DNA of 64,000 nt, from NCBI RefSeq assembly GCF_004339095.1, contig NZ_SMGQ01000013.1, positions 136,352 through 200,351 of the forward strand, written 5' to 3'. Below, piece by piece: positions 618-21,005 of the stretch (within the stretch, counting starts at the first letter, position 1; the number at the start of each line of letters is the position of its first letter). Below the pieces are notes generated by a model. That model worked only from the letters and a program-made list of their open reading frames with translations. It ran no database searches and was not told the DNA's origin. Source of the DNA: Natranaerovirga hydrolytica. Its GTDB lineage: Bacteria; Bacillota; Clostridia; Lachnospirales; DSM-24629. Both the position numbers and the translations under genes were made by a program.

Positions 618-735
618 ATATAACAAGATTATTCCCATTCACTACGTACATTCCTTCACTGGGTGCAAGCACCGTCTACGGAGAAGGGCTCTGCGTGTTC
701 AGATCAGGAACGTTGGGAATAACAAAACGTTATCT
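618..735 (+). repeat. attC-like site 1 (cassette recombination site, imperfect palindrome)
   Basis: ATATAAC (618-624) ... TTATTCCC (629-636) ... GGGAATAA (714-721) ... GTTATCT (729-735). The outer and inner boxes are exact inverse complements. The internal arms CATTCCTTCACTGG and CCAGATCAGGAACG pair imperfectly, leaving unpaired bases. Confidence 0.75.
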
Positions 736-822
736 GACATTCTCTATGTGCAAAATTTTAATGTATTTTGTAATAAGTTAATGGTATAATTAATAAAAGA
801 ATATATTTGGTGGGGTGAAATT

Positions 823-1002
823 ATGGGTCAAGCTAAAATGGATGCAATCGAAACTTTAAATAGACTGCCCGATGAAGCTTCTTGGGAAGAAATAATGTAT
901 GAATTATATGTTACAAAAAAAGTGAATCAAGCTAGAGAACAAGTTGCTAGAGGTGAATTTGTGACACATGAAGAAGCTAAAAAAAGATTGTTGAAATCAT
1001 GA
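823..1002 (+). CDS. small antitoxin-like protein (putative addiction-module component)
   Basis: 59 aa. The ORF is not in the supplied track because it is under 60 aa. RBS GGTGGGGTG. Its stop overlaps the ATG of the downstream RelE-like ORF (ATGA). Confidence 0.5.
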   Translation: MGQAKMDAIETLNRLPDEASWEEIMYELYVTKKVNQAREQVARGEFVTHEEAKKRLLKS

Positions 1003-1285
1003 AGATAATATGGTCTAACGATTCTTTAGGTGACGTAGATAGAATCAGAGAATATATTAGTCAAGATACGGAGTTTTATGCTCAAATTTTTGTTGAGAAG
1101 ATAATTCAGATAACAGAAAGATTAAAAAATTTCCAATGTCAGGAAGGGTTGTACCTGAGTTTCCAAATGAAAGTATTAGGGAAATTATATTTAGAACCTA
1201 TAGGATTATATATGAGATTACAGAAGAAAATATAATAATATTATCAGTTATACATGGAAGCAAATTATTAGATGACAGAGATTAA
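999..1285 (+). pseudogene. RelE/ParE-family toxin, frameshifted in an A6 run
   Basis: The N-terminal 44 aa are in frame 0. The C-terminus (PMSGRVVPEFPNESIREIIFRTYRIIYEITEENIIILSVIHGSKLLDDRD) is in frame -1. The junction is the A6 run at 1124-1129; an A7 would restore RLKKFPMSGRVVPEF. Confidence 0.6.
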
Positions 1286-1343: not shown

Positions 1344-1434
1344 AGATAACAATGCATCGCCGTTAGCTTTTGCATGTGAAGACTGAAAAAGCACACCCTT
1401 TCACCAAGTGCGTCGGCGATGCGAACCGTTATAC
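1344..1434 (+). repeat. attC-like site 2
   Basis: AGATAAC-AAT-GCATCGCCG ... CGGCGATGC-GAACC-GTTATAC. The R and L boxes are perfect inverse complements. The centre is unrelated to site 1. Confidence 0.7.
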
Positions 1435-1545
1435 GCAATAACTAACTATTAACAAGAGAAAAATTGAGTAAGAACAATTTGTATCAGTAAGCATTTAAGG
1501 GTATTATTAGACTATAATATAATACAAAATGAAGGCGGGCGAACT

Positions 1546-2274: not shown

Positions 2275-2292
2275 ATTATCATGGAGTATTCC

Positions 2293-2389
2293 GTTAGTTA
2301 CAGCATTCCTTCACTGGGTGCAAGCACCGCCTACGGAGAGTTGCCCTGAGGATCCAGTTCAGGAACGTCGGTAATAATAAAACTTATCC
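2293..2389 (+). repeat. attC-like site 3 (R boxes degenerate)
   Basis: Shares CATTCCTTCACTGGGTGCAAGCACC...CCAGTTCAGGAACGTCGG with sites 1 and 5. It ends CTTATCC. Confidence 0.55.
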
Positions 2390-2518
2390 GAAACCATACA
2401 CCATATACAACGATCGTGGCGTCCTGAAGAAGATTGGGGAAGGATACTTCAAGAGATGATTAATACATAGTTATATGATTATGTGTATTGATAAATGTTA
2501 AAGGTTAGAAGGAGTTGA

Positions 2519-3576: not shown

Positions 3577-3693
3577 ACATAACAAGATTATTTCGGTTCG
3601 CTGACGCACATTCCTTCACTGGGTACAAGCACCGCCAAGGAGAAGGACTTTTCAGGTCTAGTTCAGGGACGTCACAAACACGAGCTGTTATCT
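3577..3693 (+). repeat. attC-like site 5
   Basis: ACATAAC-AAGATTATTTCGG ... CATTCCTTCACTGGGTACAAGCACC ... GTTCAGGGACGTC ... GTTATCT (3687-3693). Near-identical to site 1 at both ends. Confidence 0.75.
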
Positions 3694-3731
3694 GACATTA
3701 TTGATAGTATAGAAAGGAGCAAGATTGGAAT

Positions 3732-4227: not shown

Positions 4228-4530
4228 TCGCTTTGCATGAGAGGACTGTAAAGCACATCAGAGAAGTTAAGAGATGAATACTCAAATAGCCCCTATAATA
4301 TAAGTGTTTAAGAAAACCACATCCATATATTTTTGAATTGGCTATTTTAAAAATGGGATTTAAAGCAGATGATTAATGGTTCATTGGTGACTTATTTGAG
4401 TATGATATCATTGGTGCAAATTTTGTGCACAACAGCACCTAAAAGAGTGTTCTCAACATTCATCAGCAATTTGGGTCAAGCTTTGTGAGAGCTGATGGAC
4501 GTTGGAAACACTTGGAACATTAGCTGACAG
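4228..4530 (+). repeat. degenerate attC remnant(s)
   Basis: Fragments TTCGCT...GGACTG and GGACGTTGG...ATTAGCTGACAG resemble the two halves of the site-1 family. Confidence 0.3.
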
Positions 4531-5487: not shown

Positions 5488-5530
5488 AGCTCTTCAAGGT
5501 CCAGCATAGGAACGTCGGGAAATGTAATGT
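5488..5530 (+). repeat. partial attC (right arm only)
   Basis: GGTCCAGCATAGGAACGTCGGG matches the right arm GGTCCAGTTCAGGAACGTCGG. Confidence 0.4.
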
Positions 5531-5560
5531 GATATTCTATACAATAAGGAGGTTGTTACC

Positions 5561-7173: not shown

Positions 7174-7289
7174 TTATAACAAAATGTCTCCATTCGCTAT
7201 GCCACCCCTTTACTGAGTCCAAGTACTACCTCTGATGAAGGGCTTTGTGGGTCCAGTTTAAGAAGGTGGAGAACAACAGAAAGTTAGAT
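7174..7289 (+). repeat. attC-like site 8
   Basis: TTATAAC (7174-7180) ... CCATTCGCT ... GGTCCAGTTTAAGAAGGTGG ... GTTAGAT (7283-7289), a perfect GTTRRRY. Confidence 0.7.
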
Positions 7290-7390
7290 GACATAGACTC
7301 TTCTTATCGAGTATTATTTTAGGGTTGATAGAAGAAAACATATTGCAAGTATTATATATGCTATATAATGTATATTAGGAGGAAATAGAA

Positions 7391-8924: not shown

Positions 8925-9025
8925 ACCAAACAATGTATCTCTGTTCGCTTCGCGGGGTGTAAGCACCTCTACGAAGAAGGGCTTGGCGGATACAGTTCAG
9001 AGTCGGCGGAGATATGAGGACATTA
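8925..9025 (+). repeat. attC-like site 10
   Basis: TGTTCGCTTCGCGGGGTGTAAGCACC ... GAAGGGCTTGGCGGATACAGTTCAGAGTCGGCGG. The GGTG-TAAG-CACC stem is preserved by a compensatory loop change. Confidence 0.6.
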
Positions 9026-9081
9026 TGGGAAAACTAGTACTTTGTGTTATCTAGAAAATATATTTGAGAGGAAATAATGAT

Positions 9082-9987: not shown

Positions 9988-10716
9988 ATGATTTGTAAAA
10001 GAAAGTCATTTAGAAGATTTGATGATACACTAACTTTTTCAGAAGGGGAATTACAGGATATTAATCAAGCAATAGAAAAATTAAATCCTCTTGTAGATGA
10101 CATAGAAGTAAAATATAAGGTTGTTCCAAGAGAGAAAACCACATCTAAACGTGGAGAATACTGCTTGCTTATCTATAGCGAAGAAAAAGAATATTATTTA
10201 TTAAACGTGGGTTATATGTTTGAGCAATTAGATTTATATTTGGCATCAAAGAACATAGGTGTATGTTGATATGGGATGGGAAAAGTAAATGAGCATCATT
10301 ACGAGAATTTTAAATATGTTATAATGATGGCTTTGGGAAAAGGGAAAGATAGCGACTTTAGGAAAGATTATAAAAAAAGCAAACGTAAGGAAACAAGGGA
10401 TATATGGAAAGGTGATTTGAGTCTTGAGATAGCCGATTTCATTAAATATGCTCCAAGTGCTTGCAATACTCAACCATGGCGAGTGGTTTGTGAAAATAAC
10501 ACATTGAAAATATATAGAACAACAGATGTAAAATCAATTATGCCAAAAGAAAAAGTACCTTTTTATAATTCAATAGATATGGACATTTTTCTATATTTCT
10601 TAGAGTTGGCTTTAGCTCACAATGAAATTTTATTTCAAAAAACTTTGAGTTCCGAACATGAGGGCACTAACTTAATATCTATAGCAACATATTTTTTGGA
10701 AAAAAAAGAAGAATAG
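9988..10716 (+). pseudogene. nitroreductase-family gene interrupted by in-frame TGA (10270-10272)
   Basis: ORFs 9988-10269 and 10276-10716 are in the same frame. Together they carry KRKSFRRFDD and SACNTQPWR nitroreductase motifs. They are separated only by TGA-TAT. Confidence 0.55.
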
Positions 10717-11663: not shown

Positions 11664-11666
11664 AAG

Positions 11667-11717
11667 TCATTCCTTTAGGGTCCGGTTCGAATGCGTCGCA
11701 AACACAAAACGTTGTCT
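11667..11717 (+). repeat. short attC-like site (central region deleted)
   Basis: TCATTCCTTTAGGGTCCGGTTCGAATGCGTCGCAAACACAAAACGTTGTCT. The left and right arms are fused. Ends GTTGTCT. Confidence 0.55.
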
Positions 11718-11836
11718 AAAACCAAGCTTAACCAGAATTTAAGTGCAATTTAAAAATATGAAAAGAGGCGGGGCTTAAGAAGAGAAATAGGGATTTTAAT
11801 ACAGAAATACAAAAAAATGATTCAAAAGGAGGCAAT

Positions 11837-12205: not shown

Positions 12206-12499
12206 AAGTTAGGGGAAGAAAATTACCCCATCAGAATGTCTTTTTCTAATTAGTCTTGAAGAAAAGGTTTTTAAAGTATTAACTCATTTTGCTAACTTTG
12301 CCTGGAAATGTGTTTGAATAGTAAGTGAACGTAATCAGATTTGATTAAGTTATTACAATACTTAATGAAAAATAATACTCCTTTTACAATAATAGCAAAT
12401 ACAGGGACAGTTCTGCCGTGGCAGGCAGAAGAAAACTTTAAAAGCTGTGACAATTCGTGATATCAATGGCCGGTCAACGTCACATCTTTTCATTTGGTG

Positions 12500-12570
12500 G
12501 CAAAAACTGCCAAAGAGTAGTCCGCTAGAGTCCAGCTCACAGATGTCGCAAATGCGAAACTGTAGCCAAT
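12500..12570 (+). repeat. attC-like remnant
   Basis: GTCCGCTAGAGTCCAGCTCACAGATGTCGCAAATGCGAAACTGTAGCC resembles the right half of the family. Confidence 0.4.
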
Positions 12571-12595
12571 ATGCTTTATCATGGAGGAAGAAGAT

Positions 12596-14015: not shown

Positions 14016-14384
14016 TAGAGAAGACATAACTAAATTTTCATCGATGAATAGTTAATAGTTGTTTTATAGAAAAAATATATTGAAATATTTACAATTTTAC
14101 TTAAAAATATGATAAAATAAGATAGTATAATATATACGCAAGGACTGAGAAATATAATGAGTCCAGTAAAATAAAAAGCGATTTAACATATAACAATACT
14201 ACTTAAAGGTGCCTCTTGGGAGGAAATCATGTAAATTGAAGACATAAAAAAATAAATATTATTAGAATCTTACATTGTGGACGAGATATGACAAAAATAA
14301 AAATACATCCGTGGGAAATAACATAAAGTTCTCATGGGTGTTTTTTTATATATTTCTTAAGGGGTTATGTGATTTCCATCATGC

Positions 14385-14475
14385 AACAATCTTGTTCACA
14401 GGGGAAAAGAACTGCCTACACAGAAGGGTTCTATGGTTCAGTTCAGGAACGTCGTGAACAGCAAAATATTATAAG
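14385..14475 (+). repeat. attC-like site 14
   Basis: GGTTCTATGGTTCAGTTCAGGAACGTCGTGAACAGCAAAATATTATAAG parallels GGTCCAGTTCAGGAACGTCGG...AACAAAACGTTATCT. Confidence 0.5.
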
Positions 14476-14653
14476 TAATGGTGATATTGGTATCTTGAAA
14501 GGAAGTGAGCTGTGTGAAAAGAATAAAACGAATTAAATTCTCAGTGCAGTTAAGATAATCTGGTAGCAGATTGTACTGAGATTATAAATGTGTTATCAGT
14601 TAACTGCACTGCTTTTTATTAAAAATAAATAATAAAAAGGAGTACAAGTTATA

Positions 14654-15418
14654 ATGAAAAATAAGGAATTAAGAAAATATTGGTTGTTGGAAGAGCAAAG
14701 AAGTTTTAAAGGTTGGGATTTTTCATATATTAAAAATAGAACAGTAGAAGAACCTTTACCATGGGATTATGATAAGATTATTCGTCAACACTTGAAGACA
14801 AATCATATTGTGTTGGATATGGGTACAGGAGGCGGTGAATATCTGCTAACCTTAAAACATCCATATACAAAAACTTATGTTACAGAAGGATATCCTCCAA
14901 ATGTTGCATTATGCAATGAGAAGCTAACACCCTTAGGAATAACGGTGAAACAAGTTTTTGGTGATAACAAATTGCCTTTTAAAGACGGTATGTTTGATAT
15001 AATAATCAATAGGCATGAATCTTTTGACATTAATGAAGTGCATAGATTGCTTAAGCCAAAGGGTTTGTTTGTTACTCAACAGGTTGGAGGGTTAAACAAT
15101 AAAGAATTATCAAAATTTCTAATAAAAGGGTTTAGAGAAATTATTAGTAGTGGTTATACCTTGGAAAATACCCAAGTTTTAATTAAAAGCAAAGGTTTTT
15201 CTATATTGAAGGCTGAAGAGTATTTTCCTAGGGTTAAATTTTTAGATGTAGGAAGCCTGGTTTATTTAGCTAAAATTATTGAATGGGAGTTTCCTAACTT
15301 CTCTGTTGAAAAATGCTTTGAACAACTATGTGCGCTACATTCTACAATTGAAAAACAAGGTTTTGTAGAAAGTAAACAACATCGATTTATTATTGTTTCA
15401 CAAAAAATAAAGGCGTAA
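14654..15418 (+). CDS. class I SAM-dependent methyltransferase
   Basis: Motif I VLDMGTGGGEYL. Confidence 0.65.
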   Translation: MKNKELRKYWLLEEQRSFKGWDFSYIKNRTVEEPLPWDYDKIIRQHLKTNHIVLDMGTGGGEYLLTLKHPYTKTYVTEGYPPNVALCNEKLTPLGITVKQVFGDNKLPFKDGMFDIIINRHESFDINEVHRLLKPKGLFVTQQVGGLNNKELSKFLIKGFREIISSGYTLENTQVLIKSKGFSILKAEEYFPRVKFLDVGSLVYLAKIIEWEFPNFSVEKCFEQLCALHSTIEKQGFVESKQHRFIIVSQKIKA

Positions 15419-15439
15419 ACAAATCGACACAACTTATAA

Positions 15440-15526
15440 GAATATATCTCTGTGCATTACACACATTCCAGAGCCTAAGTGAATACTTCTAAGGCTCTGG
15501 AAGGCCAGAGATACAAAACGTTAGGC
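15440..15526 (+). repeat. attC-like site 15 ending in canonical core GTTAGGC
   Basis: CATTCCAGAGCCTAAG-tgaata-CTTCTAAGGCTCTGGAAGG palindrome. Then AAAAC-GTTAGGC (15520-15526). Confidence 0.6.
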
Positions 15527-15589
15527 TACAAAAAAGACTTTGTTTATCAAAAATAGAATGATTTGTACGTTTTTTAAGTGAGGTGAGAA

Positions 15590-16200
15590 ATGGTGAAGTT
15601 AATACTTGAAACGTCAAATTTAATAGATTACTTAGCAGAAGATCATAACATTGATTTTAATCATTTAGTAATTAGAGAAAAAGTTAAAGAGCTTTATCAA
15701 GAGTGTGAAAGTGACATTTCAAAAATAAAAAAGGCATATGAATTTGTTCGAGATGAGATAGCTCATTCATGGGATATAGGAAGTACACGTATTACAAAAA
15801 GAGCATCAGAGGTATTGGTTTATAAAGAAGGTATTTGCTATGCAAAGTCTAATTTGTTTGCAGCCTTATTGCGTGCAGTCAATATACCAACAGGGTTTTG
15901 TTATCAAAGACTGACTATTGGTAATGCACCTGAAACAGGCTATTGTATCCATGCCTTGAATGCAGTGTATTTATCGGAATTTCATAAATAGATTCGGTTA
16001 GATACAAGAGGCAATAAAGAAGCAATAAATGCCCAATTTTCAATTGATACAGAACAATTAGCCTTTCCTGTACGCAAATATTATGATGAAAAAGATTACA
16101 TAACAATCTATAAGAATCCAAATGAGGCAACAATGGAAACTTTAAGTAAAAATGAAAATTGTTTAGAGATGTATAAATATCATTTACCTACAGAAATTTA
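15590..16200 (+). pseudogene. transglutaminase-like cysteine peptidase gene with in-frame TAG (15989-15991)
   Basis: C (GICYAKSN) and H (YCIHALN) lie before the stop. The D (IRLDTRGN) continues in the same frame after TAG. The stop sits where related sequences often have Trp. Confidence 0.5.
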
Positions 16201-16486
16201 ACAATAGGTTGTTGGCGTCTTGTTTTGGCCTAAAAGAGTGTTGCTGACGTGGATAGGAACAAGGAAGGGTGTCCACGTGAGTAACACCCAGAACCTTATA
16301 TAAAATTCAGCTAGGCATAGTTCTTAATGGGCTATTAAAACAATAATACCAAAATGTAATTGATTTAAAAATTAAATTCTACTATTCGTGGAATGGTCTC
16401 AATATAGAAGTCAAATATAAGTAGTTTGCCAAAGAAGAAACAATTATACTATAATTTAAACATTAAACAAGAACTAGGGAGGAATT

Positions 16487-17320
16487 ATGATGGATAGCAA
16501 AAAAGTGGGAAGCTTCATATCAGAATTGAGAAAAAAGAAGAATATGACACAACAAGAATTAGGAAATAAATTAAATGTTACAAATAAAGCTGTTTCAAAA
16601 TGGGAGACCGGTGATGGATATCCGGAAATAACGACTATTCCTGCTTTAGCAGAAGTATTAGGCGTATCCACAAGCGAATTGTTAAATGGTGAAATAAAAG
16701 GTAAAGGTATGAATGATGAAAAAGAAGTAGTTAAAAAATTTAATATAAATTTAAAAATGATCAATAAGTTAAAAGAAGGTAATAACACTAATAGGATACT
16801 ATTCGTCATCACTTCAGCATTTTTAATTGGGATTTTTACATGTATGTTATGTGATTATTTAATAAACAAAGCGTTTGGATGGTCTTTATATCCATTGGGG
16901 GCATTATTAATAATATGGTTAATTATAATTCCTATTTTTAAGCTTAAAAAGCACAGAATAATTATTTCATTTACTGTATTTGCACTTTCAGTAATACCCT
17001 ATTTGTTTTTGATAGAATATATAGCCGGAGAGAAAAGGTGGGTAATGCCACTAGCTTTGCCCATAGCAATATTAAGTATTATAGCCTTATATATTGTTTT
17101 ATATCTTTTTATTTATACTCAAATTAGAAAATTATATGTTACTGCAATAAGCTTTATAATTTTTGGAGTAGGTATCAATATTGCTCTGGGGCAGATTATA
17201 GGTGAGTTTGTTAATCATCAACAGAATACGTCAACTTTTATAAACGTATTTCTATCAATTTTTATAGCTTGTATTATAGTGATGTTTGAATATAAAAGAA
17301 CAAGAAAAAGTAGTGAATAA
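16487..17320 (+). CDS. XRE-family HTH regulator fused to a membrane domain
   Basis: N-terminal HTH_XRE (QQELGNKLNVTNKAVSKWE). Four TM helices follow. Confidence 0.7.
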   Translation: MMDSKKVGSFISELRKKKNMTQQELGNKLNVTNKAVSKWETGDGYPEITTIPALAEVLGVSTSELLNGEIKGKGMNDEKEVVKKFNINLKMINKLKEGNNTNRILFVITSAFLIGIFTCMLCDYLINKAFGWSLYPLGALLIIWLIIIPIFKLKKHRIIISFTVFALSVIPYLFLIEYIAGEKRWVMPLALPIAILSIIALYIVLYLFIYTQIRKLYVTAISFIIFGVGINIALGQIIGEFVNHQQNTSTFINVFLSIFIACIIVMFEYKRTRKSSE

Positions 17321-17536
17321 TTGATATTTAATTTAAAGTTAATGAATCAATGAAGTGAATAGTCGATATTAAAATATTAAGATAACCAATATATTATGAA
17401 GAAAAGAGATTTGTTCACCCTTATCTTAAGAATATAATTAAGAAACATATCATAATGATCATAAGCATATGGGTACGATACCAGAATGTTAGAGGATTAT
17501 CTAGACCATTAAAAAATGAAAGGTTGAGGTAGGGAT

Positions 17537-18295
17537 ATGATTGAATACCTAGGAAGAGAAGTTGAGGTAAAAATAGATAGGCCATTAGGAAGTAAGCATC
17601 CAGATCACGGTTTTGTTTACCCCATTAATTATGGATTTATTGAAGGAACCAAAGCCGCAGATAATGAAGAAATTGATGCATATGTTCTTGGTATATTTGA
17701 ACCAATAAGTACTTATAGAGGGAAAGTTATAGGAATAATTAAGAGAAATAATGATGTTGAAGATAAGTTAATAGTAGCTAACGATTTAAATAGTTATGAT
17801 AAGTATCAAATAAAAGCTTTAACAGAATTTCAAGAAAGATTTTTTGATACAGAAATAATAACCTACGATTATTTAAGAAGTTCAATTCGAAATACTGTTC
17901 GGGGATTAATAAAAAAAGGCAATAAGATTCTTGTACTAGAAGAAAAGTATCAAGGAGAAAAATATTATTTTTTACCTGGTGGAGGAATTGAGTATTTAGA
18001 GAAAAGTCAAGAAGCTTTATATCGAGAAATGAAAGAGGAATTGAATGTAGATATAGTAGAGAGTCAATTAATGCACGTAATAGACAATATTTTTGAAGCA
18101 AACGGAATAAAAGCACACGAGGCTACACAAATATATGAGGTTAAAGTAAGTGGAATTGAAGAATTGAAGGATGGGGATAGAATGGATAAAGATTTAATGC
18201 CCAGTAAAATTCGGTGGATAGATATTGAAGAATTAAGAAAAGAAATTGCACCATTGTATCCGGAAGAATTGAAGGGGTTACTGTCTAGGGATTAA
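17537..18295 (+). CDS. inorganic pyrophosphatase-like domain fused to NUDIX hydrolase
   Basis: N-terminus resembles family I PPase. The C-terminus has a Nudix box GGGIEYLEKSQEALYREMKEELNV. Confidence 0.55.
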   Translation: MIEYLGREVEVKIDRPLGSKHPDHGFVYPINYGFIEGTKAADNEEIDAYVLGIFEPISTYRGKVIGIIKRNNDVEDKLIVANDLNSYDKYQIKALTEFQERFFDTEIITYDYLRSSIRNTVRGLIKKGNKILVLEEKYQGEKYYFLPGGGIEYLEKSQEALYREMKEELNVDIVESQLMHVIDNIFEANGIKAHEATQIYEVKVSGIEELKDGDRMDKDLMPSKIRWIDIEELRKEIAPLYPEELKGLLSRD

Positions 18296-18431
18296 CGGCA
18301 TACAAAGAGGGTTATCGATCTAGGCGAGAAATTGAATAAAGTGTAAAAAGGGCTGATTGGAAGGCATCACCAATGTCAATGTTAGGCAAAATAACCACAG
18401 TGTTTACAATAAGAAAAATTGGAGAGTGAGT

Positions 18432-19181
18432 ATGATTATAAGAATAGAAGAATTATCTATGAATGCATGGCCATCATTACAAACTCATTTATATGATGGT
18501 TGGATTTTGAGATTTTCTCAAGGATATACCAAAAGAGCCAATTCTATAAATCCAATATACTCATCTGATGCAAACATAGAAGAAAAGATTAAGAACTGTG
18601 AGAAAACATATTTGACTAAAGGCTTGCCAATAATTTATAAGTTAACTAAAGCCTGTTATCCTAAAAATCTTGATAAAATTTTAGAAAGTAAAGGATATAA
18701 GAAGATAGATGAAACATCTGTACAAATCTTAAATATAACAGAAGATTATTCTTTAGAAAAAGTTAGTGGATTGGATATTGAATATGAGTTTACACAAGAC
18801 TGGATTAATTCGTTTGTAGAGTGTTCTAACACTCAAAATGAGTCAACCATTGGAATCATGACGCAGATGCTAAAGAACATTATAGGAGATAAGATATGTG
18901 TCAAAATGAAACTGGATAATCAAATAGTAGGCTGTGGATTTGGAGTAATTGAAGAAAACTATATGGGTATATTTGATATAATCGTAAGAGAAGAAGACAG
19001 AGGACAAGGGATAGGAAAAGCAATAATGCAAGAAATATTAAAAGAAGCCCAAAAAAGAAATGTTTGTAAAGCTTATTTACAAGTAGTAGTTGGAAATTCT
19101 GTAGCTGAGAGTCTATATAATAAACTTGGCTTTAGAGAAAAATATAGATATTGGTATAGAATTAAAAATAGTTCAATTTAG
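18432..19181 (+). CDS. GNAT-family N-acetyltransferase
   Basis: C-terminal GNAT fold with QGIGKAIMQE. RBS GGAGAG before ATG 18432. Confidence 0.65.
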   Translation: MIIRIEELSMNAWPSLQTHLYDGWILRFSQGYTKRANSINPIYSSDANIEEKIKNCEKTYLTKGLPIIYKLTKACYPKNLDKILESKGYKKIDETSVQILNITEDYSLEKVSGLDIEYEFTQDWINSFVECSNTQNESTIGIMTQMLKNIIGDKICVKMKLDNQIVGCGFGVIEENYMGIFDIIVREEDRGQGIGKAIMQEILKEAQKRNVCKAYLQVVVGNSVAESLYNKLGFREKYRYWYRIKNSSI

Positions 19182-19303
19182 TGTACGGGTATAGTTATTG
19201 ATTTATCCTCAATATTAAGTATATGATGTATAGAATTTTGTTAGAGTTAAGTCTATGAATCATATAATAACTATGACGGAAAAAGCAAGAAAGGAAGTGT
19301 TTT

Positions 19304-20077
19304 ATGATTACCATTTATGATTGGTTTGGCTATGAATTACCCATAAAAGAACGTTATCGGTTAATAAAAGAAGCTGGATTTGATGGCGTTTTATTATGGT
19401 GGAGTGATGGCTTTGGTCGGAACGATTATCGCAACGGGCCACAAATTGCGAGGGAAGTGGGGCTTTTTATAGAAAATATCCACACCCCAGTCCAAAATCA
19501 AAACAACCTCTGGCTTGACAATCTGGACGGTGAAACCTTAACCGATTGTTATTTGCAATGTGTTTCAGATTGCGCAGAATTCGAAATTCCCACAATGGTG
19601 GTGCACCTGCCCAACGAAGACTATCCATATAATGAGTTGGGACTGGATAGAATTAAGCGAATCACTGAAAAAGCTGAACAGCTTGGTGTCAATGTTGCAC
19701 TAGAGAATTTACGGAACCTTACCAATTTGGAATATGTGCTGGAGCAAGTGGATTCCTTACGTATAGGGTTCTGTTATGACTGTGGGCATCACTACCGCTA
19801 CTATCCGGGTAAAGATTTATTATCTAAGTATGGCTCCCGGGTGATGGCATTACATTTGCATGATAACGGCGGAGAGTATGAGCAACACCGGTTACCCTTT
19901 GATGGTACGATTGATTGGTCTGTAGCCATGAAAAAAATTGCAGAAACGGGTTATTCTGGTGCCACTGCAATAGAGGCTATGAATTGGGATTATAAGGATT
20001 TATCGGCAGAAGAGTTTTTACAAGAAGCGTTTCAGCGAGCAAAAAGGCTGGAAGCCTTAAAACTTTATAATCCATGA
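19304..20077 (+). CDS. sugar phosphate isomerase/epimerase (xylose-isomerase-like TIM barrel)
   Basis: 257 aa. Noticeably more GC-rich than its neighbours. Confidence 0.55.
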   Translation: MITIYDWFGYELPIKERYRLIKEAGFDGVLLWWSDGFGRNDYRNGPQIAREVGLFIENIHTPVQNQNNLWLDNLDGETLTDCYLQCVSDCAEFEIPTMVVHLPNEDYPYNELGLDRIKRITEKAEQLGVNVALENLRNLTNLEYVLEQVDSLRIGFCYDCGHHYRYYPGKDLLSKYGSRVMALHLHDNGGEYEQHRLPFDGTIDWSVAMKKIAETGYSGATAIEAMNWDYKDLSAEEFLQEAFQRAKRLEALKLYNP

Positions 20078-20104
20078 AAACAAAAATAATTTACAACAAA
20101 CTTA

Positions 20105-20210
20105 TTCTCGTTTGGTGACGCAATTCCTTCATTAGGTGGAAGCACCCCTAAGAAAAAGGACTACGGGGGTCCATTTTAGTAAGTTGGGAATAACAAAACG
20201 CTGGTGGATT
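20105..20210 (+). repeat. attC-like site 17
   Basis: TTCTCGTTTGGTGACGCAATTCCTTCATTAGGTGGAAGCACC ... GGGTCCATTTTAGTAAGTTGGGAATAACAAAACG. Confidence 0.6.
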
Positions 20211-20282: not shown

Positions 20283-20888
20283 ATGATGGAATCAGTTATA
20301 AGTCGAGGAATCATAGAATCTGTGATTTATCTATTCATCATGGCAGGGTTGGTTGTTATTCACGAATTTGGACATTTGTTAGCAGGATTTATGCTGGGTA
20401 TACCTAAAAAACGAATGTCCATACAATTTGTTGATAGGAAACCTGAGAAAGGTTTAATGCGTTCTTTAGTATTTTCAATTAGTCCTCACATCGTTCTTTT
20501 AGACAATAAAAACAGTAAAGTTTCGCCTTCACCTAATGAAATGGAAAAGTATGTTGGAATTCTTGAACAGTTTATTCCATCTGAGAAAAAAATGTTTTGG
20601 TTTGTAGCAGGAGGACATACTTTTGAATTAATTATAGTATTGAGTATGGCCATCGTTTCAATTATAAGCAACCACAACTTACTTTTTGAAATGTCATTTA
20701 GAATAACACATATGTCTCTTGTATTAGATATTATTTACTTGTTAATTGATTTGTTCTCTGCTCTTAAATCAAAAGAACTAACAGGTGGAGATTTTTCAGG
20801 GCAATGGGCAATATCTCCAATTAAAACCATCATATTTTATGCATTCTATTTTACGACCCTTATATCTGCATGGATTCTTTTAAAATAG
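20283..20888 (+). CDS. membrane protein with HExxH (M50-like) motif
   Basis: HEFGH within the first TM region. 201 aa. Confidence 0.4.
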   Translation: MMESVISRGIIESVIYLFIMAGLVVIHEFGHLLAGFMLGIPKKRMSIQFVDRKPEKGLMRSLVFSISPHIVLLDNKNSKVSPSPNEMEKYVGILEQFIPSEKKMFWFVAGGHTFELIIVLSMAIVSIISNHNLLFEMSFRITHMSLVLDIIYLLIDLFSALKSKELTGGDFSGQWAISPIKTIIFYAFYFTTLISAWILLK

Positions 20889-20929
20889 ATATAGAAGTTG
20901 TAAGCTATTCAATTTTCACCAAAGTGCTC

Positions 20930-21005
20930 TATCTTTTAACGGATAAAGGCGTTGAGGGTTTAGTTTGGAAAGGTCGAGAACAACAAAAAAATTAAGTGAT
21001 ATTGC
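20930..21005 (+). repeat. attC-like remnant
   Basis: GGTTTAGTTTGGAAAGGTCGAGAACAACAAAAAAATTAAGTGA parallels the site-8 right arm. Confidence 0.45.

What the first reader, a model, noticed from the sequence alone, without database searches (positions are those of the whole stretch)
618..735. Anatomy of attC-like site 1: nested exact inverse-complement boxes with asymmetric spacers
ATATAAC-aaga-TTATTCCC ... GGGAATAA-caaaac-GTTATCT. The outer 5-nt boxes ATAAC/GTTAT and the inner 8-nt boxes are perfect inverse complements. The spacers differ in length (4 vs 6), and the inner arms ACGTaCATTCCTtcaCTGG and CCAGatcAGGAACGT pair with unpaired bases on one strand only. That asymmetry is what gives attC its strand selectivity. 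The central stem GGTGC-AA-GCACC is conserved in five family members, with compensatory changes (GGTG-TAAG-CACC at 8950, GGTG-GAAG-CACC at 20135).
Basis: seen in the sequence. Interest (0 to 1): 0.7.

Follow-up and report, generated by a model that had tools for sequence, protein, structure and literature searches.

The report
Clostridial integron-type attC recombination site
This 118-base stretch is a folded-DNA recombination site of the kind that bounds integron gene cassettes. It is one of about twelve in a 21-kb cassette array of the soda-lake clostridium Natranaerovirga hydrolytica, which belongs to a bacterial group reported to be almost free of integrons.

Summary
TGGGAATAA (714-722), CAAAAC, GTTATCT (729-735).

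Covariance models find about twelve such sites in the window. All are on the + strand, all lie within 619-21001, and each follows one or a few genes (toxin-antitoxin pairs, GNATs, methyltransferases and others). The same family forms same-strand arrays in Clostridium, Anaerovirgula, Natronincolaceae, Tissierellales, Sporosalibacterium and metagenomes.

Across 41 distinct sites the outer boxes and inner helices covary strongly. The asymmetry is conserved:
- spacers of 4 versus 6 nt;
- a one-sided bulge, usually 10 nt, on the R''/L'' arm.

An A.C mismatch and a TC/TC loop are also conserved. On the bottom strand these become G.T and tandem G.A. With the shared architecture imposed, the bottom strand is about 2.5 kcal/mol more stable; free MFEs do not differ.

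A cassette shared by two genomes has homology limits exactly at the GTT cores.

No integrase was found, because the array runs off the window's left edge. Verdict: an attC-type site, an unusual variant, with integron membership unproven.

The parts
618..624 (+). R'' box (ATATAAC). Family consensus is yTAAC.
   Evidence: Sequence. TAAC is conserved in 26-30 of 41 distinct family sites. It pairs with R' (helix 1, 87% of cells paired).
625..628 (+). 5' unpaired spacer (AAGA, 4 nt)
   Evidence: Not complementary to CAAAAC. Length 4 in about 30 of 41 sites, against 6 on the other arm.
629..637 (+). L'' box (TTATTCCCA), 9-bp perfect partner of 714-722
   Evidence: the repeat finder I1. All 9 pairs of this helix show changes on both sides across the family.
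638..647 (+). One-sided bulge (TTCACTACGT, 10 nt) with no bases opposite. It stands where canonical attC sites carry single extrahelical bases.
   Evidence: Length 10 in most sites even where the sequence is unrelated, with 0 nt on the opposite arm in all sites. Bottom-strand folds place it as a 10-nt bulge on the 3' arm.
648..655 (+). Inner helix, 5' arm (ACATTCCT). A650 faces C711 as a conserved A.C mismatch, which is G.T on the bottom strand.
   Evidence: A.C in 31 of 41 sites while the neighbouring pairs covary (C-G to A-T or T-A). The TTCCT/AGGAA pairs show CCGAT/ATCGG, CCTTC/GAAGG and TCGAT/ATCGA variants.
656..657 (+). TC of the symmetric 2x2 internal loop (partner TC at 704-705). On the bottom strand it reads as tandem 5'-GA/3'-AG.
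   Evidence: T.C in 31 of 41 and C.T in 35 of 41 sites, although the flanking helices covary.
658..662 (+). Inner helix 2, 5' arm (ACTGG). It pairs with 699-703 (TCAGA), imperfectly in this copy.
   Evidence: Family ACTGG/CCAGT is 93% paired together with the inner helix, with ATCGG/CCGAT and ACCGG/CCGGT variants.
662..673 (+).
   Evidence: 96% of cells paired. Only 3 compensatory cells, otherwise nearly invariant. Not used in the MFE fold of this copy.
674..698 (+). Rest of the sequence-conserved core (GTCTACGGAGAAGGGCTCTGCGTGT). Its fold is undetermined.
   Evidence: Candidate hairpins are 69% paired or less, and the alternatives are no better. The sequence is highly conserved across genera.
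699..713 (+). 3' arms of inner helix 2 (699-703), TC loop (704-705) and inner helix (AGGAACGT, 706-713)
714..722 (+). L' box (TGGGAATAA). It abuts the inner helix directly.
723..728 (+). 3' unpaired spacer (CAAAAC, 6 nt)
   Evidence: Length 6 in nearly all sites.
729..735 (+). R' box (GTTATCT). The predicted crossover lies between G729 and T730. Family consensus is GTTAKNT followed by GAMA (736-739).
   Evidence: G 33, T 35, T 39 and A 36 of 41 sites. In a related array, homology between two copies of one cassette starts and stops at this core. The crossover position itself is inferred from integron biology (PMC5027507).
1..729 (+). Cassette that ends in this site: Phd/YefM antitoxin (19-291) and ParE toxin (278-592). 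Its start lies about 90 nt left of the window, at a GTTATAT core.
   Evidence: Pfam hits. The Logan contig L001 shows the preceding site's 3' end.
1345..1438 (+). Next site in the array. Its sequence type differs (GATAAC-AAT-GCATCGCCG ... CGGCGATGC-GAACC-GTTATAC).
   Evidence: R1 E 0.015, R2 E 0.014, not in the training sets. Sequence.
2275..2393 (+). Family site, decayed: the G of the R' GTT is lost.
3578..3697 (+). Family site with a broken L box. It does not fold.
4438..4529 (+). Weak site
   Evidence: R2 E 0.09.
7175..7293 (+). Family site
8926..9032 (+). Family site (non-training for R1, E 3e-7)
12454..12571 (+). Divergent site (non-training, R2 E 9e-5)
14364..14478 (+). Family site (non-training for R1, E 1e-5)
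15435..15530 (+). Site with different L boxes (TATCTCTG/CAGAGATA) and a simple long hairpin in place of the core. Same 10-nt bulge and CAAAAC spacer; R' is GTTAGGC.
   Evidence: R1 E 4e-5, non-training. Sequence.
20092..20210 (+). Family site
20884..21001 (+). Last, weak site. It marks the end of the array.
   Evidence: R2 E 0.02. Housekeeping genes follow.

Best explanation
Positions 618-735 are an attC-type cassette recombination site. It closes a Phd/ParE toxin-antitoxin cassette in a chromosomal array of at least 21 kb in Natranaerovirga hydrolytica (class Clostridia).

Proposed mechanism:
1. When the DNA is single-stranded, the bottom strand folds back on itself.
2. The R' and R'' boxes (GTTAT/ATAAC) pair, separated by a non-complementary 6/4-nt spacer from a 9-bp L helix.
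3. The L helix stacks directly on an 8-bp inner helix that holds a G.T wobble. A tandem G.A loop, a second short helix and a conserved branched core follow.
4. A 10-nt bulge is present only on the arm opposite the bottom strand's 5'-AAC-3'.
5. A tyrosine recombinase of the integron-integrase kind would bind this structure, tell the bottom strand from the top by the one-sided bulge and spacer asymmetry, and cut within AAC (between G729 and T730 in top-strand terms). Cassettes would thereby be excised and inserted in one orientation.

Shown: the anatomy, its conservation and covariation, the co-oriented array, the bottom-strand bias of the non-Watson-Crick positions, and cassette limits at GTT in a related array.

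Inferred: single-strand folding in vivo, the cleavage point, the identity of the recombinase, and whether this copy is still active.
For: (1) Exact boxes and spacers.

(2) Model R1 was built from 8 sites using the outer helices only. It finds non-training sites at 8926, 14364, 15435 and 1345. R2 adds 12454, 20884 and 4438. All 12 are on the + strand and within 619-21001, with none in the other 43 kb.

(3) Each site follows the stop codon of one gene or a few genes. The cargo is typical of cassettes: Phd/ParE, Fic, GNATs, HAD, methyltransferases, NUDIX and many proteins of unknown function.

(4) The same family forms same-strand arrays of 4-6 sites in Anaerovirgula multivorans, a Clostridiaceae MAG and metagenome contigs. 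Between genomes, homology is confined to the sites and the cargo differs.

(5) On 41 distinct sites, 85.9% of cells are paired against 76.4% in shuffles (0 of 500 reach the observed value). All 9 L-box pairs and all 9 inner-helix pairs show changes on both sides. Sliding the 3' partner by 1 to 3 columns drops pairing to 28-42%.

(6) The asymmetry is conserved: spacers of 4 versus 6 nt, and a bulge whose modal length is 10 nt against 0 opposite, even where the bulge sequence differs. The bulge lies on the arm that carries AAC in the top strand, as described for attC extrahelical bases (PMC5027507).

(7) The conserved A.C and TC/TC positions become G.T and tandem G.A on the bottom strand. With the common stalk imposed, the bottom strand is more stable in 21 of 25 sites (mean 2.5 kcal/mol, Wilcoxon p 5e-4). 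For 263 mobile-integron attC sites the reported figures are 2.12 kcal/mol and an excess of bottom-strand G:T mispairs (PMC5027507).

(8) A flavodoxin cassette is 94% identical between A. multivorans and an unrelated metagenome contig. The identity starts at the upstream GTTATCT and ends at its own GTTATG, and the flanks are unrelated.

(9) There is no Rfam match, even at E up to 1, and no terminator-like tail.
Against: - No integron integrase was seen.
- The single tyrosine recombinase found nearby (Clostridium magnum) fails the integron-integrase model, scoring 69.5 bits against a cutoff of 265. Its homologues sit in array-free contexts.
- The array's upstream end, where intI would lie, is outside the window and could not be fetched.
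- Canonical attC sites carry two or three single extrahelical bases and a variable centre. Here there is a 10-nt bulge, and the centre is the most conserved part.
- Unconstrained MFEs show no strand difference.
- Several window copies are decayed (2275, 3578), so activity is uncertain.
- The alignment used for the counts was fitted to the outer helices by the model. The counts therefore lean towards that structure, although the compensatory variants are plain to the eye.
- GC skew of the sites is about 0 rather than negative.
Confidence: 0.78

Rival explanations
1. These are attC-like folded sites served by a recombinase that is not a canonical integron integrase. This would be a separate clostridial cassette system that converged on, or diverged early from, integrons.
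For: - No IntI was found in any locus.
- Firmicutes are reported to be nearly devoid of complete integrons (PMC4889954, PMC9024848).
- The anatomy departs from canonical attC. It has a 10-nt bulge instead of single extrahelical bases, a 4-nt spacer, and an inner core that is almost invariant in sequence across several genera and clostridial lineages.
Against: - The integrase side of every array examined lies off the contig or locus, so absence is not shown.
- The AAC/GTT core, spacer, L boxes, side of the asymmetry and GTT-delimited cassettes all match integron rules.
- The only candidate recombinase tested was rejected.
Confidence: 0.12
2. The element works as RNA in the 3' untranslated region of cassette transcripts, as a stabiliser, processing site or attenuator. 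Its DNA-level resemblance to attC would then be incidental.
For: - It lies immediately after stop codons on the coding strand.
- Covariation cannot by itself tell RNA from DNA folding.
- The conserved core suggests a sequence-specific ligand.
Against: - The conserved non-Watson-Crick positions are C.U/U.C and A.C on the sense transcript. They form pairs (G.A, G.T) only on the antisense strand, and stalk energies favour the antisense strand.
- There is no U-tract and no terminator-like site.
- There is no Rfam match, even at E up to 1.
- An RNA role does not explain cassette homology ending at the GTT cores.
Confidence: 0.05
3. It is a REP/MITE-like intergenic palindromic repeat, spread by a transposase acting in trans (for example a Y1 RAYT/IS200-type enzyme) and not tied to cassette exchange.
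For: - It is a repeated, GC-richer (about 45% against 31%) intergenic palindrome found in many genomes.
- No cognate recombinase is nearby.
Against: - All copies share one orientation and cluster in one 21-kb block rather than being scattered. None occurs in the remaining 43 kb.
- No Y1 transposase or other transposase is among the window ORFs scanned.
- The outer boxes covary freely while keeping the AAC/GTT core, unlike copies of a MITE.
- A whole gene plus its site moves as one unit bounded by GTT.
Confidence: 0.04

Closest known systems
attC sites of sedentary chromosomal integrons, e.g. Vibrio cholerae repeats (VCRs)
   Same: - It is long: 117 nt from R'' to R', within the published 57-141 bp range.
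- It is a homogeneous family within an array.
- It has AAC/GTT core boxes, unpaired spacers and L boxes.
- Extra bases lie on the R''/L'' arm only.
- It has a long, probably branched centre, as described for chromosomal attC sites (PMC5027507).
- Toxin-antitoxin cassettes are interspersed.
- The bottom strand is energetically favoured through G.T and purine-rich mismatches.
   Different: - It has a single 10-nt bulge instead of two or three single extrahelical bases spaced by a 6-bp stem.
- The spacers are 4/6 nt rather than 5-6 nt on each arm.
- The centre is the most sequence-conserved part and is shared across several genera and clostridial lineages, whereas the L boxes vary.
- The host is a low-GC clostridium.
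- No integrase has been seen.
attC sites of mobile integrons (e.g. attCaadA7)
   Same: R''-L''...L'-R' order with GTTRRRY-like R' at the 3' end of the cassette coding strand. Recognition is expected to depend on structure rather than sequence in the outer helices (covariation).
   Different: Mobile-integron sites are mostly short (about 60 nt) with a 3-nt terminal loop and little sequence conservation. R' here is GTTAKNT rather than strict GTTRRRY. This family gave no match in the plasmid or phage collections.
CALIN (clusters of attC sites lacking an integron integrase; Cury et al. 2016)
   Same: Within the window this is operationally a CALIN: at least 2 co-oriented attC-type sites and no integrase nearby. 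A few CALINs were the only integron parts reported in Firmicutes, apart from one complete integron.
   Different: The window cuts the array on its integrase side, so CALIN status is undecided. At about 12 sites over 21 kb it is large, and its site family is shared by many clostridial genomes. That argues for a living system somewhere in the clade.
REP/BIME-type extragenic palindromes
   Same: Imperfect intergenic palindromes, GC-richer than their surroundings, in many copies.
   Different: REPs are dispersed and occur in both orientations. These sites are clustered, co-oriented, bounded by AAC/GTT cores, and delimit mobile gene units.

Membership tests
integron attC site | Inverse core RYYYAAC (R'') and core GTTRRRY (R') at the two ends, with AAC/GTT conserved | tested here: met
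   ATATAAC / GTTATCT at 618-624 / 729-735. Family counts: TAAC in 26-30 of 41 sites, GTTA in 33-39 of 41. The purine/pyrimidine pattern beyond GTTA is loose (GTTAKNT).
integron attC site | Unpaired central spacer between the R and L boxes, usually 5-6 nt per arm, sequence not complementary | tested here: met
   AAGA (4 nt) against CAAAAC (6 nt), non-complementary. The lengths are conserved. The 4-nt arm is one base shorter than the usual range (PMC5027507).
integron attC site | L''/L' boxes that pair, recognised by structure (covariation rather than sequence) | tested here: met
   9-bp perfect pairing here. All 9 pairs show double changes across the family.
integron attC site | Two or three single extrahelical bases on the R''/L'' arm (G in L'', a T about 6 bp further in) | tested here: not met
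   There are no single-base bulges in the consensus. Instead there is a one-sided bulge, 10 nt long in most sites, directly after L''. It is on the correct arm, the one that carries AAC in the top strand, so the geometry is analogous but the feature is not the canonical one.
integron attC site | Bottom strand folds more stably than the top (G:T mispairs, purine skew) | tested here: inconclusive
   Free MFEs are equal. With the common stalk imposed, the bottom strand is favoured in 21 of 25 sites by 2.5 kcal/mol, and G.T and tandem G.A are conserved on the bottom strand. GC skew of the sites is about 0, not negative.
integron attC site | Lies at the 3' end of a gene cassette, in a co-oriented array; cassettes are units bounded at G|TT of R' | tested here: met
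   12 sites, all on the + strand, following ORFs within 619-21001. GTT-bounded homology was shown for a related cassette. It was not shown for the 618-735 cassette itself.
integron attC site | Recombined by an integron integrase as folded single-stranded DNA | not testable with these tools
   This needs binding or recombination assays, or population-level junction data.
complete integron | intI (tyrosine recombinase with the IntI-specific extra domain) and attI next to the first cassette | tested here: inconclusive
   There is no tyrosine recombinase in the window. The array continues left of position 1, and that DNA could not be retrieved. No IntI was found in other loci.
CALIN | At least 2 attC sites with no integrase within about 4 kb | tested here: inconclusive
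   This holds inside the window, but the integrase-proximal end of the array is not in view.
Rfam RNA families | Match to a curated covariance model | tested here: not met
   No match at gathering thresholds over the whole window, and none at E up to 1 over 560-800.

The most novel reading that the evidence does not exclude
Clostridia, and perhaps some Fusobacteriales, may carry their own widespread and still active lineage of integron-like cassette platforms. Their recombination sites would form a distinct structural class:
- a length-fixed 10-nt bulge in place of single extrahelical bases;
- conserved G.T and tandem G.A positions;
- a branched core that is nearly invariant in sequence across several genera and clostridial lineages.

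They would be served by a divergent integrase not yet recognised, or by another recombinase that reads the conserved core. If so, 'Firmicutes lack integrons' would partly reflect detection models trained on proteobacterial sites.
Probability: 0.3. Interest if true: 0.75.

Novelty: new variant of a known kind. Interest (0 to 1): 0.55.

Why it matters
The two IntegronFinder surveys report that Firmicutes almost lack integrons. They list no complete integron in 2016, one (Limnochorda) in 2022, and a few CALINs, and they call the reason unclear.

Here a clostridial chromosome carries at least 21 kb of co-oriented cassettes. The site family recurs, with compensatory variation and GTT-bounded cassette units, in at least six other clostridial genera or families and in metagenomes.

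This gives a concrete way to ask three things: whether Gram-positive anaerobes run native cassette systems, what integrase serves them, and how far the structural rules for attC recognition can stretch. On the last point the test cases are a 10-nt bulge in place of single flipped-out bases, and a conserved rather than variable centre.

The cargo (toxin-antitoxin pairs, AbiH, Schlafen-like, GNATs, many unknown proteins) would also be a new reservoir of accessory and defence genes.

The finding as originally worded, the anatomy of one site, is mostly a correct recognition of a known kind of element.

Tried and rejected
(1) Looking for the integrase.
- The same search against all fetched loci found only a 285-aa Xer-like protein in C. 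magnum.
- That protein fails TIGR02249. It lies 4 kb from a lone site, and its homologues sit in ordinary array-free neighbourhoods. Rejected as the array integrase.

(2) Walking left of the window. Exact-protein look-ups for Phd, Fic and HAD returned only short Logan contigs of run SRR8436137, broken at the repeats. The NCBI contig carrying the identical HydF is not on record.

(3) Following a flavodoxin cassette gene into other genomes to reach an array start. This found no integrase. In C. botulinum the homologue sits inside the cbi operon without any site.

(4) Wobble-count strand test (G.T on the top versus the bottom strand over all helices). It was uninformative, roughly equal, and the alignment rules bias it towards the top strand.

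(5) Unconstrained MFE comparison of the strands showed no difference.

(6) Candidate folds for the core beyond the GGTG/CACC hairpin were two registers of a second hairpin and the long bottom-strand hairpin from RNAalifold. None is well supported.

(7) Searches for the site in plasmid, phage and viral-contig collections gave no match.

(8) Literature searches for integrons in Clostridia, Bacillota or Natranaerovirga found nothing specific. The IntegronFinder 2.0 supplement is truncated and showed no relevant entries.

(9) The GC/AT skew of the sites shows no purine enrichment on the bottom strand.
Full report
**Observation.**
- ATATAAC at 618-624
- AAGA at 625-628
- TTATTCCCA at 629-637
- TGGGAATAA at 714-722
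- CAAAAC at 723-728
- GTTATCT at 729-735

GGTGCAAGCACC lies at 662-673. Two details are wrong.
- The string quoted as CCAGatcAGGAACGT is TCAGATCAGGAACGT (699-713).
- The variants offered as compensatory (GGTGTAAGCACC near 8955, GGTGGAAGCACC near 20134) alter one side of the pair next to the loop, so they are not compensatory.

As single-stranded DNA the region folds better than shuffles: top strand -17.0 kcal/mol (z -3.4), bottom strand -15.6 (z -2.4).

**Setting.**
The window is 31% GC with strong positive GC skew, and almost all genes are on the + strand. Its right two thirds encode clostridial housekeeping functions: HydE/F/G, a GerM-like protein, SLH-domain and Cthe_2159 proteins, and two-component systems. 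HydF is 100% identical to that of Natranaerovirga hydrolytica, a haloalkaliphilic pectin-fermenting anaerobe from soda lakes (PMC3325495).

The left 21 kb is different. It holds short, co-oriented genes separated by GC-richer islands. The genes encode:
- Phd/ParE and a ParE fragment
- Fic, GNATs and a HAD hydrolase
- a split nitroreductase
- SH3 and PEMT proteins
- methyltransferases
- a transglutaminase-like protein
- an HTH protein, a NUDIX protein and an AP_endonuc_2 protein
- many proteins with no Pfam match

**A family of sites.**
The islands align into one family. Its consensus is yTAAC-AAGA-TTATTyCCG-(10 nt)-ACATTCCT-TC-ACTGG-GTGCAAGCACC-GCCTACGAAGAAGGGCTCTGnGGGT-CCAGT-TC-AGGAACGT-CGGrAATAA-CAAAAC-GTTAKnT-GAMA.

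- Model R1 was built from eight sites with only the outer helices specified. In the window it recovers non-training sites at 8926 (E 3e-7), 14364 (1e-5), 15435 (4e-5) and 1345 (0.015).
- Model R2 is broader and adds 12454, 20884 and 4438.
- All twelve hits with E below 0.1 are on the + strand and lie between 619 and 21001. Nothing comparable occurs in the other 43 kb or on the - strand.
- Sites 1345 and 15435 have quite different sequences but the same layout. Site 15435 keeps the 10-nt bulge and the CAAAAC spacer and ends in GTTAGGC.
- A Logan contig of the same strain shows another site's 3' end (…GTTATAT) about 90 nt left of the window, so the array continues upstream.

**Other genomes.**
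One exact-pattern scan of species-representative genomes and one of metagenomes gave single exact matches in 7 and 11 records. The genome records are Clostridium magnum, Anaerovirgula multivorans, a Natronincolaceae MAG, a Clostridiaceae MAG, a Fusobacteriales MAG, Sporosalibacterium faouarense and a Tissierellales MAG.

R1 then found same-strand arrays of up to six sites in several of them: L003, L005, L009 and L019 have 4-6 sites each, and L006, L015 and L018 have 2-3. BLAST of the window array against all these loci gives homology only over the sites, from about 613-621 to 733-743, and never over the cargo. The family is absent from the plasmid, phage and viral-contig collections.

**Structure and covariation.**
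Figures are for 41 distinct aligned sites (alignment A5).
- 85.9% of cells form pairs, against 76.4% in column shuffles (0 of 500 shuffles reach the observed value).
- Sliding the 3' partner by 1 to 3 columns drops pairing to 28-42%.
- All nine L-box pairs and all nine inner-helix pairs show changes on both sides. Examples are TTCCT/AGGAA becoming CCGAT/ATCGG, CCTTC/GAAGG or TCGAT/ATCGA, and L boxes of entirely different sequence.
- The alignment was fitted to these outer helices, which inflates the counts somewhat, but the substitutions are obvious by eye.

- It is 96% paired but almost invariant.
- It has three genuinely compensatory cells: GGCG/CGCC, GGAG/CTCC and AGT/ACT.
- It is plausible, but its support comes mainly from conservation.
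- The rest of the core has no well-supported fold.

**Asymmetry.**
- The 4-nt versus 6-nt spacers are kept in about 30 of 41 sites.
- Between L'' and the inner helix there is a bulge with nothing opposite. It is 10 nt long in most sites, even where its sequence is unrelated (TTCACTACGT, AAGCCAAAGC, TAGGCGCGCC, TGCATTACAC).
- Three non-Watson-Crick positions are conserved while their neighbours covary: A.C (31 of 41 sites) and a TC/TC 2x2 loop (31 and 35 of 41).
- On the bottom strand these read as a G.T wobble and a tandem 5'-GA/3'-AG. By established nucleic-acid thermodynamics both are structured. The top-strand versions are plain mismatches.

Free MFEs of ten sites do not differ between strands. 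When the shared stalk is imposed and evaluated with DNA parameters, the bottom strand is lower in 21 of 25 sites, by 2.5 kcal/mol on average (Wilcoxon p 5e-4). For this site the values are -6.9 (bottom) versus -4.5 (top). The sites are related sequences, so the p value overstates their independence.

[quoted passage not shown] The bulge lies on the arm that carries AAC in the top strand, opposite AAC in the bottom strand. That is where attC extrahelical bases lie.

**Cassettes as units.**
A flavodoxin-family gene in the A. multivorans array has a 93-94% identical copy on an unrelated metagenome contig. The DNA identity begins exactly at the upstream GTTATCT core and ends at the cassette's own GTTATG core, and the flanks are unrelated. 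This is the signature of a gene-plus-site unit exchanged by recombination at the GTT core. It was shown for a related array, not for the 618-735 cassette.

**What is missing.**
No integrase was found.
- The window has no tyrosine recombinase.
- The loci have one, a Xer-like protein near a lone site in C. magnum. It fails the integron-integrase model, and its homologues lie in array-free contexts.
- The integrase-proximal side of every array examined runs off the available DNA, and attempts to walk left of the window failed.
- Whether this is a complete sedentary integron or a CALIN therefore stays open.
- Some window copies are decayed. Site 2275 has lost the G of GTT, and site 3578 has a broken L box and does not fold.

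**Rivals.**
- An RNA element is unlikely. The conserved mismatches favour the antisense strand, there is no terminator-like tail, there is no Rfam match even at E up to 1, and an RNA role would not explain GTT-bounded units.
- A REP/MITE-type repeat is unlikely given the clustering, the single orientation, the freely covarying boxes and the absence of a transposase.
- A non-IntI recombinase using attC-like sites cannot be excluded.

**Comparison and novelty.**
The site meets the attC criteria for core boxes, spacer, L boxes, position and array context. It does not meet the criterion of two or three single extrahelical bases, having a length-fixed 10-nt bulge on the correct arm instead. It also reverses the usual pattern of conservation: the centre is nearly invariant across several genera and clostridial lineages, and the L boxes are variable.

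The IntegronFinder surveys report Firmicutes as lacking complete integrons in 2016, and as having one plus a few CALINs in 2022. I found no paper describing clostridial cassette arrays or this site family, but the searchable library is incomplete.

I therefore rate it a new variant of a known kind.

Noticed in passing
window 9988-10269 and 10276-10716: One TM1586-type nitroreductase is split into two adjacent ORFs that match the N- and C-terminal halves of PF14512. It is probably a frameshifted cassette gene.
   Followed up: partly
window 823-1235: The second cassette has a 59-aa ORF with no Pfam match, followed by a 78-aa ORF that matches only the first half of the ParE model. It may be a truncated toxin-antitoxin pair.
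   Followed up: no
window 2275-2393 and 3578-3697: Two family sites look inactivated. Site 2275 reads AAAAC-TTATCC (the G of the GTT core is lost) and its R'' is TTATC. Site 3578 has a non-complementary L box, and neither strand folds better than shuffles.
   Followed up: partly
window 5490-5535 and 11664-11721: These are 3' halves of family sites (…GGTCCAGCATAGGAACGTCGGGAA…; …GGTCCGGTTCGAATGCGTCGCAAACACAAAACGTTGTCT) with no recognisable 5' halves. The 5' part may lie inside the preceding ORF or may be deleted.
   Followed up: no
window 15531-20091: Five genes (transglutaminase-like, HTH/DUF6320, NUDIX, GNAT, AP_endonuc_2) with no detectable site between them. This is either one very large cassette or a run of lost sites.
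   Followed up: no
window 14575-14611: A 12-nt perfect inverted repeat, CAGTGCAGTTAA … TTAACTGCACTG, lies just upstream of the methyltransferase gene at 14654. It is unrelated to the site family.
   Followed up: no
L005 3071-3187 (Clostridiaceae MAG JASBZB010000064): A family site is cut off in its conserved core, right after GGGTGCAAGCACC. An IS3-family transposase gene follows, so an insertion sequence has landed in an attC-type site.
   Followed up: partly
L020 and L025 (Clostridium botulinum cbi operon): The cobalamin-synthesis operon is interleaved with co-oriented accessory genes: GNATs, Fic, nitroreductase, and a flavodoxin about 90% identical to the A. multivorans cassette gene. The site models find nothing there, so cassette-like cargo is present without sites.
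   Followed up: partly
L002 1501-2681 (Clostridium magnum): A single, well-formed family site lies directly after an AbiH (abortive infection) gene, with no other site within 8 kb. It looks like a solitary cassette carrying a phage-defence gene.
   Followed up: partly
window 736-739 and the equivalent positions in family sites: Four bases beyond the 7-nt R' box (GACA, consensus GAMA) are conserved. They belong to the start of the next cassette, which suggests the protein footprint extends past the classical core.
   Followed up: no
whole window, compared with the genome-contig collection: The exact-pattern scan of species-representative genomes did not return N. hydrolytica, although the window holds four exact matches. 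Its NCBI contig is also not on record in the gene-position index. The source region therefore appears to be masked or missing in those collections.
   Followed up: no
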